Below are positions 46,861-49,271 of a DNA stretch of 64,000 nucleotides, piece by piece (position 1 is the first letter of the stretch; every line of letters begins with the position of its first letter). The position numbers were made by a program, and so were the translations under genes. The DNA is from Escherichia coli (GTDB lineage: Bacteria; Pseudomonadota; Gammaproteobacteria; Enterobacterales; Enterobacteriaceae). The notes beneath the pieces are model-generated. The model was not told the origin of the DNA. It searched no databases and was given only the letters and a program-made list of their open reading frames with translations. The DNA lies in assembly GCF_009931435.1 (NCBI RefSeq), contig NZ_CP043414.1; one strand, given 5' to 3'.

Positions 46861-48288
46861 CTAGCGCGACTGCTGATTATATTCATCATCGCGTTGATAA
46901 GCTTCATCATTCGGCTGCTCCGGTACCGACCGCAGTCGATACTCTTCATCCTGGCTCACCGCTTGTTCAGCCAAATCCGGATTAATCTCGCGTTTAATTT
47001 CTACTCCTAAACCGCGAAACGCTTCTGCTTGCGCCAGCACATTTCCGCGACCTGAAGAGAGTTTTTTCATTGCCTGACGATAGTTGTCCTGTGCTTTGTC
47101 CAGACTTTGACCAATCGCGGACATATCATCGACAAACAAGCGCATTTTGTCGTACAACTTGCTGGCACGATCGGCTATTTTCTGAGCGTTGCGGCTTTGA
47201 TGCTCATAGCGCCAGAGGTTGGCGATAGTGCGCAGCGCCACCAGCAGCGTGGTCGGGCTAACCAGCATGATATTGTTTTTCAACGCTTCGGTGATCAGCT
47301 CCGGCTGGCGGTCAAGCGCCAGTAAAAAAGCGGGTTCAACGGGAATAAACATCAGCACGTAATCCAGGGTTCGCAGCCCCGGCAGCTGTTGATAATCTTT
47401 GCGTCCCAGCAAACGGATATGGTTACGCACCGACGCGATATGTTCCTGTAGCGCGCTTTCGCGGGTGTAGTCGTCTTCTGCGTTGAAATAGCGTTCATAG
47501 GCGACCAGTGTCATTTTTGCGTCGATCACCACATCTTTTCCCTGCGGCAACCGCACGATGACATCCGGCTGCATCCGCGAGCGGGCGTCATTTTCGATGC
47601 TGACCTGGGTTTCATATTCATACCCTTCACGCAGACCGGAAGCCTCCAGCACACGCGTCAATACTACCTCGCCCCAGTTGCCCTGGGTTTTATTGTCGCC
47701 TTTCAGCGCACGCGTCAGGTTGATCGCTTCCTGGGCCATTTGCGCGTTGAGCTGCTGGAGATTGCGTATTTCGTGAGTCAGGGTATGGCGTTCTTGTGCT
47801 TCTTTACCGAAACTGTCCTGAACCTGACGACGAAAACCGTCCAGTTGTTCACGTAGTGGCGACAACAGGCTGTTCAGACTCTGACGGTTTTGCTCATCAA
47901 CCCGGCGATTGCTGTGCTCGAAAATACGGTTGGCGAGGTTTTCAAACTGCTCACTGAGGCGCTGTTCGCTGTTGATCATTTGGCGAATTTTATCGTCAGC
48001 ATGTTGCTGTACGGCCTCCATTCGCGTGGTGACTTCACGCAGATCCGCCTCCAGCGAGGTGTTAATGCTTTGCAGACTGCGCACTTCATTATTGAGTAAC
48101 TCGCACTCAGCACGCCAATGTTCGCTTTGGGTAATTTGTTGTTTTGCCGCACTTAACTCCGCGACCATCTCTTCACGTTCAGCGAATTGCTCGGCTTTTT
48201 GCTGCGCATGCTGATAACTGGCAATCAGCCAGCCAATCGCCACGCTCACCAACGCAATAACTGCGTAAACCATGATTGAGATATCCAC
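46861..48288 (-). CDS. rmuC: DNA recombination protein RmuC
   Basis: Start assigned to GTG at 48288 (VDISIMVYAVIAL, preceded by ggagg RBS) giving 475 aa; the ORF-track ATG at 48381 adds 31 aa. Confidence 0.88.
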   Translation of the reverse strand: MDISIMVYAVIALVSVAIGWLIASYQHAQQKAEQFAEREEMVAELSAAKQQITQSEHWRAECELLNNEVRSLQSINTSLEADLREVTTRMEAVQQHADDKIRQMINSEQRLSEQFENLANRIFEHSNRRVDEQNRQSLNSLLSPLREQLDGFRRQVQDSFGKEAQERHTLTHEIRNLQQLNAQMAQEAINLTRALKGDNKTQGNWGEVVLTRVLEASGLREGYEYETQVSIENDARSRMQPDVIVRLPQGKDVVIDAKMTLVAYERYFNAEDDYTRESALQEHIASVRNHIRLLGRKDYQQLPGLRTLDYVLMFIPVEPAFLLALDRQPELITEALKNNIMLVSPTTLLVALRTIANLWRYEHQSRNAQKIADRASKLYDKMRLFVDDMSAIGQSLDKAQDNYRQAMKKLSSGRGNVLAQAEAFRGLGVEIKREINPDLAEQAVSQDEEYRLRSVPEQPNDEAYQRDDEYNQQSR

Positions 48289-48404
48289 AACGCCTCCAGC
48301 CTCATTACTTACCCGCACAAAATAGAATTGTGCTGTACAAACGTCCAGTTTGAAAGAAGTTTCCTGCGAGGCGCTACGCAAAACGATCCTTAATTTTTAT
48401 TATT

Positions 48405-48444
48405 TTATCCCACAATATGAGACCTAGTTTATATTGTGGGATAA
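48405..48444. promoter_or_regulatory. perfect 14-bp inverted repeat, candidate operator
   Basis: ttatcccacaatat-N12-atattgtgggataa, 60-100 bp upstream of the IclR-family gene and about 120 bp upstream of divergent rmuC; no flanking U-run on either strand. Confidence 0.45.
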
Positions 48445-48503
48445 ATCACCTTTTCCCCACGTCATTATGTGGAACACTTCAGCAATATCATCAGGAGAAA
48501 CGT

Positions 48504-49271
48504 ATGGCAGATACCTCTTCAACCACCGCTGGCGCACAAACGTTATTACGCGGGCTCGCGGTTCTTAATGCTGTTTATAACGGCTGCCATGACCTGAAAA
48601 GTATCGGCGAGTTCACCGGCACGACCCGGAGCACAACCCATCGTTTAGTCACCGTTCTGGTGGAACAACGCTACCTGCGCCACGTCCCAACGCAGGGCTA
48701 CCAACTGGGCGCCAAACTGATCGAATTCGGTGCCAGAGCGCTGGAAAGCACCTCGCTGTACGAAGTTGCGCTGCCCGTTTTGCAACGCCTTGCCCGTTAC
48801 ACCCTGGACACCGTGCATCTGGGGATCGTTGAAGGCGACGAAGTGCTGTATCTGGAGAAGATCAACAGCCAGCGCGGGCTGGAAATGCGCTCACGCCCAG
48901 GCCATCGCATGCCACTGGCAATCACCGGCATCGGCAAGGCATTGATCCTCAACCGAACAGAAGAAGAGTGGCGCACGCTGTTTAAGACCTGTGGTGATGA
49001 AACAAAACTGGGCGCATTTATTCAGAACATGCGTCGTTATGCCGCGAGTGGTTTTGCTTTTGATCTGGAAGAGAACGAGCCGACTATCCGTTGCGTTGCA
49101 GCGCCGGTTTACAACGCCCGGGATGAAATTGTGGCGGCTATTTCTGTCGCCAGTACCACTACGTATATGTCACTGGCGCGTCTGGAAGAACTGGCACCTT
49201 ACGTCAAATCCTGTGCAGAAGAGATATCCGCTGAACTGGGCTGGGGTAAGCACGTCCGCAAAAATAAATAA
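48504..49271 (+). CDS. IclR-family transcriptional regulator
   Basis: Start chosen at MADTSSTTAGAQTLLRGLAVLNAV (aggag RBS); N-terminal wHTH plus C-terminal effector-domain pattern typical of IclR regulators. Confidence 0.8.
   Translation: MADTSSTTAGAQTLLRGLAVLNAVYNGCHDLKSIGEFTGTTRSTTHRLVTVLVEQRYLRHVPTQGYQLGAKLIEFGARALESTSLYEVALPVLQRLARYTLDTVHLGIVEGDEVLYLEKINSQRGLEMRSRPGHRMPLAITGIGKALILNRTEEEWRTLFKTCGDETKLGAFIQNMRRYAASGFAFDLEENEPTIRCVAAPVYNARDEIVAAISVASTTTYMSLARLEELAPYVKSCAEEISAELGWGKHVRKNK

What the first reader, a model, noticed from the sequence alone, without database searches (positions are those of the whole stretch)
48270..48381. rmuC probably initiates at GTG, 31 codons inside the ORF-track start
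The conserved N-terminus (V)DISIMVYAVIAL begins at a GTG preceded by ggaggcg, whereas the ATG-initiated extension (MRSASQETSFKLD...) has no obvious RBS and runs into the divergent promoter region.
Basis: partly seen in the sequence, partly recalled or inferred. Interest (0 to 1): 0.15.

Follow-up and report, generated by a model that had tools for sequence, protein, structure and literature searches.

The report
rmuC starts at the annotated GTG

Summary
rmuC (minus strand) starts at GTG 48288..48286, giving a 475-aa protein. GGAGG lies 4 nt upstream.

RefSeq already annotates this start in the nearest E. coli genome, in strain B and in K-12 MG1655 (b3832).

It is an accident of one allele:
- K-12 and most E. 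coli carry one more base there, which puts a TAA in frame 9 codons upstream of the GTG.
- In 78 Enterobacteriaceae species the homologous start is GTG in 70, ATG in 5 and TTG in 3.
- 57 of 78 have an in-frame stop within 7 codons upstream.
- A GG[A/G]GG motif sits 4-5 nt upstream almost everywhere.
- Codon-type variation begins at codon 2 and is absent upstream.

The extension holds rmuC's own control region. A conserved CTG-N10-CAG LexA-type box lies 44 nt before the GTG, between candidate -35 and -10 hexamers. rmuC (yigN) is a published LexA-regulon gene.

Some GenBank records do carry the 506-aa model, so the correction has practical value. Biologically it is already known. I could retrieve no start-site mapping, initiation profiling or N-terminal peptide data.

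The parts
46861..48288 (-). rmuC (yigN) coding sequence as supported here: 475 codons plus stop, starting at GTG
   Evidence: ORF. Same start and length as RefSeq rmuC. Pfam RmuC PF02646 at E 2.8e-109, 365 bits. The exact 475-aa protein is in public collections as 'DNA recombination protein RmuC'.
48286..48288 (-). GTG initiation codon of rmuC
   Evidence: Read directly. The homologous codon is GTG in 70, ATG in 5 and TTG in 3 of 78 species. It is the annotated start in MG1655.
48293..48297 (-). Shine-Dalgarno GGAGG, with a 4-nt spacer (CGTT) to the GTG
   Evidence: Anti-SD duplex of -9.3 kcal/mol, matched by fewer than 1% of random 20-mers from the window. GG[A/G]GG or a near variant lies 4-5 nt upstream of the start in about 74 of 78 species, and per-site entropy there is close to zero.
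48289..48381 (-). Spurious 31-codon 'extension' (TTG 48381..48379 to GTT 48291..48289). It is non-coding: 5' UTR, promoter and operator of rmuC.
   Evidence: K-12 and B have a 1-nt insertion and an in-frame TAA here. There is no codon periodicity of variation upstream of the GTG. The distance from the LexA-type box to the start varies by non-multiples of three between species: 44, 45, 46, 47.
48299..48308 (-). Polymorphic patch with the 1-nt indel: window GTAAG-TAATGAGGCT versus K-12 GTAAGTTGTTGCGTCA. The shorter allele removes the in-frame TAA, whose window equivalent at 48311..48309 is out of frame here.
   Evidence: Alignments. The shorter allele occurs in 17 genomes at 100% identity and in a roughly 335-genome band at about 97%, of 5419 E. 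coli genomes. One member of that band was inspected.
48331..48350 (-). LexA (SOS) box-like 20-mer AACTGGACGTTTGTACAGCA. The core CTG-N10-CAG is 48348..48333, with 44 nt between the core and the GTG.
   Evidence: Sequence. Nearly invariant across Enterobacteriaceae. A CTG-N10-CAG lies 38-48 nt upstream of the start in 73 of 78 species. rmuC (yigN) is listed in the E. coli LexA regulon (PMC6590174). The Salmonella yigN SOS box is reported 44 bp from the start with heterology index 8.71, 19-fold induction and LexA dependence (PMC8072944).
48327..48355 (-). Candidate sigma-70 promoter A: -35 TTTCAA (48355..48350), 17-nt spacer that is the LexA box core, -10 CACAAT (48332..48327). Inferred transcription start near 48320.
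   Evidence: Read from the sequence and from conservation. It falls below the threshold of the consensus scan. Inferred, not shown.
48319..48347 (-). Candidate sigma-70 promoter B, overlapping A: -35 TGGACG (48347..48342), 17-nt spacer, -10 TATTTT (48324..48319). Inferred transcription start near 48312.
   Evidence: Read from the sequence. Conservation is mixed: Superficieibacter keeps TATTTT while CACAAT is lost, and Kosakonia keeps CACAAT while TATTTT is lost. Below the scan threshold. Inferred.
48271..48273 (-). In-frame ATG at codon 6 (rejected alternative start)
   Evidence: Codon 6 is ATG in only 12 of 78 species and otherwise Ile, Leu or Val. Residues 2-5 are conserved with codon-type variation; D2 is present in 75 of 78. 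Anti-SD duplex of only -3.1 kcal/mol.

Best explanation
rmuC is translated from GTG 48288..48286, directed by the GGAGG Shine-Dalgarno sequence 4 nt upstream, to give the standard 475-aa RmuC. Its first ~25 residues form a hydrophobic N-terminal segment. The 93 nt upstream that the ORF track adds are not coding. They hold the short 5' UTR, the promoter and a LexA-type operator lying between or over the promoter hexamers, so LexA would repress the gene and DNA damage would induce it. The frame stays open back to a TTG only because this allele lacks one base that most E. coli have; in those genomes a TAA sits in frame. Shown here: the start-codon position, the SD, the stop or indel in relatives, conservation, and coding periodicity. 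Inferred: the exact promoter hexamers, the transcription start, and LexA binding at this particular site.
For: 1. RefSeq starts rmuC at this GTG (1428 bp, 475 aa) in the nearest genome, in E. coli B, in a K-12-like strain and in MG1655 b3832.

2. K-12 and B carry a 1-nt insertion in the 'extension', giving an in-frame TAA 9 codons upstream of the GTG.

3. In 78 species loci the start is GTG 70, ATG 5, TTG 3. An in-frame stop lies within 7 codons upstream in 57 and within 14 in 62.

4. Mean per-site entropy by codon position is 0.75/0.14/1.25 for codons 2-6 and 1.20/1.13/1.27 for the 30 nt upstream.

5. Anti-SD duplex energies are -9.3 kcal/mol for the GTG, -5.9 for the TTG and -3.1 for the ATG at codon 6.

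6. The LexA-type box and flanking hexamers inside the extension are almost invariant across genera. They sit 44-46 nt from the start in 61 of 78 species, matching the published Salmonella yigN box at 44 bp and E. coli LexA-regulon membership. RmuC transcript and protein rise during SOS induction.
Against: - I could retrieve no direct experimental evidence for the N-terminus or for the transcription start. Cappable-seq, dRNA-seq, operon RNA-seq, Ribo-RET and N-terminomics sources gave nothing for rmuC.
- The SD-to-start spacer of 4 nt is short.
- In this window an AAGGA lies 5 nt upstream of the TTG.
- Some gene callers and GenBank submitters do call the 506-aa form: BDI53309.1, BEC39322.1, BED46868.1, 168 contigs.
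- Neither candidate promoter passes the consensus scan.
Confidence: 0.94

Rival explanations
1. Translation starts at TTG 48381 and yields a 506-aa RmuC with a 31-residue N-terminal extension (the ORF-track model, also present in some GenBank records).
For: - The frame is open in this allele.
- AAGGA lies 5 nt upstream of the TTG, at -5.9 kcal/mol.
- The exact 506-aa protein is deposited as RmuC in GenBank/DDBJ records and is called on 168 contigs.
Against: - The frame is closed by TAA in K-12, B and most E. coli through a 1-nt indel.
- It is closed within 7 codons in 57 of 78 species.
- There is no coding-type variation upstream of the GTG.
- The TTG lies upstream of the conserved LexA-type box and both candidate promoters, so the SOS-induced transcript should not contain it (inference).
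- TTG is a weak initiator (general knowledge).
- The AAGGA is absent from related alleles.
- RefSeq rejects this start even in genomes with the open allele.
Confidence: 0.02
2. Translation starts at the in-frame ATG 48273..48271 (codon 6 of the 475-aa form), giving a 470-aa protein, as RefSeq has it for some E. fergusonii and Escherichia proteins.
For: - ATG is a stronger initiator than GTG (general knowledge).
- 470-aa RmuC entries exist: WP_220469050.1 and WP_194313540.1.
Against: - Codon 6 is ATG in only 12 of 78 species.
- Residues 2-5 (D-I-S-I) are conserved with low second-position and high third-position variation, as in translated sequence.
- No SD lies at a usable distance: -3.1 kcal/mol, within the commonest 41% of random 20-mers.
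- The conserved GGAGG would be 19 nt from this ATG.
Confidence: 0.03
3. Both starts are used in strains with the shorter allele, so a minor extended isoform exists besides the 475-aa protein.
For: - The frame is open in about 350 of 5419 E. coli genomes.
- There is an SD-like AAGGA in this window.
Against: As for the TTG model. It also needs a transcript that starts upstream of the SOS promoter, and no co-directional gene lies upstream here because the neighbour is divergent.
Confidence: 0.01

Closest known systems
E. coli K-12 rmuC (yigN, b3832), 475 aa, GTG start at NC_000913.3:4017333
   Same: - Homologous GTG start, identical GGAGGCGTT upstream and the same protein length.
- The same LexA-type box and upstream block.
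- The coding sequence is 95.6% identical.
   Different: - The window has one base fewer and several substitutions in the 5' UTR patch (48299..48308). This removes K-12's in-frame TAA and opens the frame back to a TTG.
- Upstream of about 48383 the window carries an IclR/sugar-acid island where K-12 has the udp terminator.
Salmonella enterica yigN (STM14_4775), a LexA-dependent SOS gene
   Same: - SOS box reported 44 bp from the start codon, heterology index 8.71, 19-fold induction by nalidixic acid (PMC8072944). The window has the same 44-nt distance from the box core to the GTG.
- The homologous start in S. enterica subsp. diarizonae is also GTG.
   Different: The protein is about 87% identical. 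LexA regulation was not tested for the window's organism.
Over-extended ORF models from longest-ORF or gene-caller rules (generic annotation artefact)
   Same: The longest ORF runs into the promoter region. The same 506-aa model appears in submitter-annotated GenBank records.
   Different: Nothing unusual. The neighbouring IclR gene shows the same effect: ORF-track start 48417 versus annotated start 48504.

Membership tests
RmuC family (Pfam PF02646) | Significant match to the RmuC domain profile above the curated cut-off | tested here: met
   E 2.8e-109, 365.2 bits against a cut-off of 26, covering residues 167-463 of the 506-aa ORF and profile positions 1-289 of 291. The match says nothing about the N-terminus.
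RmuC family (Pfam PF02646) | Orthology and synteny with E. coli rmuC (upstream of ubiE, downstream of udp) | tested here: met
   ubiE lies immediately downstream. The udp-rmuC junction is interrupted by an island, as in 1456 of 5425 E. coli genomes. RefSeq names the homologous gene rmuC.
Canonical SD-led bacterial initiation site | Initiator codon (ATG/GTG/TTG) conserved in position among orthologues | tested here: met
   GTG 70, ATG 5, TTG 3 of 78 species at the homologous codon.
Canonical SD-led bacterial initiation site | Anti-SD-complementary motif a few nucleotides upstream | tested here: met
   GGAGG with a 4-nt spacer and a -9.3 kcal/mol duplex, matched by fewer than 1% of random 20-mers. 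The motif is conserved in about 74 of 78 species at 4-5 nt. The spacer is short, but it is conserved.
Canonical SD-led bacterial initiation site | Direct evidence of initiation (N-terminal peptide, initiation-arrested ribosome footprint) | not testable with these tools
   No data for rmuC in the supplements that could be read. Other sources are not held.
LexA (SOS) regulon operator | CTG-N10-CAG palindromic core resembling TACTG(TA)5CAGTA | tested here: met
   AACTGGACGTTTGTACAGCA at 48350..48331. By my own count it matches the 20-mer consensus, recalled from memory, at 13 of 20 positions. The bare core is frequent in the window (35 matches against 13.8 expected), so it is not diagnostic on its own.
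LexA (SOS) regulon operator | Position overlapping the promoter, conserved among orthologous genes | tested here: met
   The box block is nearly invariant across 78 species. It lies 38-48 nt upstream of the start in 73 of 78.
LexA (SOS) regulon operator | LexA binding and DNA-damage induction | not testable with these tools
   Literature covers orthologues only: the E. coli LexA-regulon list (PMC6590174), Salmonella yigN with its lexA(Ind-) control (PMC8072944), and RmuC mRNA and protein rising during SOS induction (PMC11002266).

The most novel reading that the evidence does not exclude
In the minority of Escherichia genomes with the one-base-shorter 5' UTR allele (about 350 of 5419 complete E. 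coli genomes, including this window), a low-abundance 506-aa RmuC isoform could be made from TTG 48381. It would need a transcript that starts upstream of the SOS promoter, and it would carry a 31-residue charged extension ahead of the N-terminal hydrophobic segment.
Probability: 0.02. Interest if true: 0.2.

Novelty: already known. Interest (0 to 1): 0.05.

Why it matters
It matters only for annotation hygiene. The longest-ORF model of rmuC in this allele adds 31 residues that are really promoter, operator and 5' UTR. That 506-aa model has been deposited in some GenBank records. Taking it at face value would hide the gene's LexA-type operator inside 'coding' sequence and would misplace the N-terminal hydrophobic segment. 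No new biology is revealed. The GTG start, the 475-aa length and the SOS regulation of rmuC/yigN are all established.

Tried and rejected
- **Transcription start and initiation data.** I looked for experimental transcription start sites or initiation sites for rmuC.
  - The Cappable-seq supplements (PMC4782308) have no entry for the gene or its coordinates.
  - The id I tried for the Thomason 2015 dRNA-seq paper is not held.
  - The operon RNA-seq paper (PMC4161252) and the Ribo-RET preprint (10.1101/520783) have no supplements held.
  - The TRAINSPOTTER N-terminomics supplements do not mention rmuC.
- **Consensus promoter scan.** It found nothing on the rmuC strand inside the extension. Its only promoter-like hit is at 48491..48464, far upstream. 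The two promoter candidates I give therefore rest on conservation and on position relative to the LexA-type box.
- **Terminator-like hairpin.** The scan flagged one at 48383..48362. I did not treat it as functional: it is weak (three G-C pairs), and in K-12 the clear udp terminator lies just upstream of it.
- **Rfam.** A scan of 48100..48600 gave only chance microRNA hits on the palindrome.
- **ATG at codon 6.** Considered as the start and rejected.
- **In-frame GTG at codon 22 (48318).** Considered and rejected: it has no SD (+0.9 kcal/mol) and lies inside the candidate promoter hexamers.
- **The bare CTG-N10-CAG motif.** It is too common in the window to count as evidence by itself.

Full report
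**What is in the sequence**

On the minus strand an ORF runs from 48381 to 46861 (506 codons). Its first codon, at 48381..48379, is TTG.

Codon 32 is GTG at 48288..48286. Upstream of it lies GGAGGCGTT, with GGAGG at 48297..48293 and a 4-nt spacer. Downstream it reads D-I-S-I-M-V-Y-A-V-I-A-L. The coordinates, the '31 codons' and the 'ggaggcg' are therefore correct.

The claim of 'no obvious RBS' for the extension is only partly right. AAGGA (48391..48387) lies 5 nt upstream of the TTG. Its duplex with the 16S rRNA 3' end is -5.9 kcal/mol, about the top 7% of random 20-mers from the window. The GTG scores -9.3 kcal/mol (top 1%) and the in-frame ATG at codon 6 scores -3.1 kcal/mol.

**Existing annotation**

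The 421-nt region matches 5425 of 5426 complete E. coli genomes. RefSeq annotates rmuC as 1428 bp (475 aa) starting at the homologous GTG in four genomes:
- strain Z0117EC0005, the nearest genome: 99.5% identical over the query stretch and 99.3% over the coding sequence
- E. coli B
- a K-12-like strain
- MG1655, b3832, at 4017333, read directly as GTG

Exact-sequence look-up shows that both forms are in public collections. The 475-aa form is a RefSeq 'MULTISPECIES' RmuC. The 506-aa form is in submitter-annotated GenBank/DDBJ records (BDI53309.1, BEC39322.1, BED46868.1) and in automated calls on 168 contigs. A 470-aa form that starts at the codon-6 ATG exists for E. fergusonii.

**Why the extension is not coding**

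- **Indel within E. coli.** Alignment with K-12 and B shows that the window has one base fewer in a small polymorphic patch: GTAAG-TAATGAGGCT versus GTAAGTTGTTGCGTCA. With the extra base, K-12 reads ...GGG TAA GTT GTT GCG TCA GGA GGC GTT GTG, an in-frame TAA 9 codons upstream of the start.
- **Frequency of the open allele.** The shorter allele is identical in 17 of 5419 E. coli genomes. A band of about 335 more matches at about 97%. I inspected one of these (CFSAN061769): it has the same deletion yet encodes a RmuC identical to K-12's, and PGAP still starts it at the GTG.
- **Other species.** One scan of species-representative genomes returned 80 loci, of which 78 could be anchored on the homologous start.
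  - The start codon is GTG in 70, ATG in 5 and TTG in 3.
  - The frame is closed by a stop within 7 codons upstream in 57 and within 14 in 62.
  - It is open for 31 or more codons in only 13, with no shared upstream start.
- **Pattern of variation.** Mean per-site entropy by codon position is 0.75/0.14/1.25 for codons 2-6 and 0.93/0.56/1.39 for codons 2-25. That is the coding signature. For the 30 nt upstream it is 1.20/1.13/1.27, with no periodicity apart from the nearly invariant SD.
- **Codon-6 ATG.** Residue 2 is Asp in 75 of 78 species, while codon 6 is ATG in only 12 of 78. This rules out the downstream ATG as the conserved start.

**What the extension really is**

The stretch 48319..48383 is more conserved across genera than the wobble positions of the gene. 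It contains AACTGGACGTTTGTACAGCA (48350..48331), a CTG-N10-CAG LexA-type box whose core ends 44 nt before the GTG.

The same arrangement, with the box 38-48 nt from the start, occurs in 73 of 78 species. The spacing is mostly 44, 45 or 46 nt. These differences are not multiples of three, which again argues against coding.

The literature agrees:
- rmuC (yigN) is on the E. coli LexA-regulon list (PMC6590174).
- Salmonella yigN has one SOS box 44 bp from the start, heterology index 8.71, is induced 19-fold by nalidixic acid, and its record note describes LexA-dependent induction (PMC8072944).
- RmuC mRNA and protein rise during SOS induction (PMC11002266).

The bare core motif is common in the window (35 matches against 13.8 expected). 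The case for the operator therefore rests on conservation, position and literature, not on the motif alone.

Two overlapping promoter candidates flank the box:
- TTTCAA-N17-CACAAT (48355..48327)
- TGGACG-N17-TATTTT (48347..48319)

Neither reaches the consensus-scan threshold, and different genera retain one or the other. Either would place the transcription start near 48312-48320. That gives a 5' UTR of about 24-32 nt and leaves the TTG at 48381 outside the SOS-induced mRNA. This step is inferred, because no transcription start data could be retrieved.

**Mechanism, as far as it is supported**

LexA would occupy the box within the promoter. DNA damage would relieve repression. The short leader carries a conserved GG[A/G]GG 4-5 nt from a GTG start. 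Translation then yields a 475-aa RmuC. Its N-terminus is a hydrophobic segment: the 19-residue Kyte-Doolittle mean peaks at 2.5 over residues 31-49 of the 506-aa ORF, which are residues 1-18 of the real protein. The RmuC domain lies in the C-terminal two-thirds.

**Comparison and novelty**

This is the known E. coli rmuC start with the known SOS operator. The only local peculiarity is a one-base-shorter 5' UTR allele that leaves the frame open and misleads longest-ORF rules and some gene callers. The verdict is 'already known', of low interest, and useful only as an annotation correction.

**Residual uncertainty**

No N-terminal peptide, initiation-profiling or transcription start evidence was available. 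A minor extended isoform in strains with the open allele cannot be formally excluded, but I put it at about 2%.

Noticed in passing
window 48417-48506 (+ strand): The divergent IclR-family regulator shows the same ORF-track over-extension. The ORF track starts it at ATG 48417 (284 aa), but RefSeq homologues are 255 aa and start at ATG 48504 (MADTSS...), which is preceded by AGGAG. The extended start lies inside a palindrome.
   Followed up: partly
window 48404-48418 and 48431-48445: A perfect 15-nt inverted repeat (TTTATCCCACAATAT / ATATTGTGGGATAAA, 12 nt apart) lies in the divergent intergenic region, upstream of the IclR-family gene. It may be the operator of that regulator. Rfam gives only chance microRNA hits here.
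   Followed up: partly
window ~48383 upward (IclR gene from 48504 and the genes listed up to 51917): An accessory island lies between the udp terminator and the rmuC promoter. It encodes an IclR regulator, a 2-dehydro-3-deoxygalactonokinase, an ORF that by my reading of its sequence resembles a KDPGal-type aldolase, and one that resembles a TctC-type periplasmic binding protein. It is present in 1456 of 5425 complete E. coli genomes. In the others homology to the window begins at about 48383, right after the udp terminator.
   Followed up: partly
window 48365-48380 (- strand): A conserved imperfect inverted repeat TGCG-N8-CGCA sits within the block TTTTTGCGTAGCGCCTCGCAGGAA, just upstream of the candidate -35 of rmuC. 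It is nearly invariant across Enterobacteriaceae although it is non-coding. The scan tool flags it as a weak terminator-like hairpin. Its role is unknown; it could be a regulator site or an upstream promoter element.
   Followed up: no
window 46861-48288 versus L004, L005, L010: The rmuC coding sequence is 95.6% identical to K-12 but only 92.9% to Escherichia sp. MOD1-EC7003 and 91.7% to strain SCPM-O-B-8794. Yet the 5' UTR allele with the 1-nt deletion is shared with those two and with a subset of ordinary E. coli. This suggests the short upstream patch has been exchanged by recombination.
   Followed up: no
L011, L013, L014 (Citrobacter spp.), upstream of rmuC: These loci carry a ~21-nt insertion between the promoter block and the SD, so the LexA-type box is 66 nt from the start instead of about 45 nt. 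This is further evidence that the segment is a non-coding leader.
   Followed up: no
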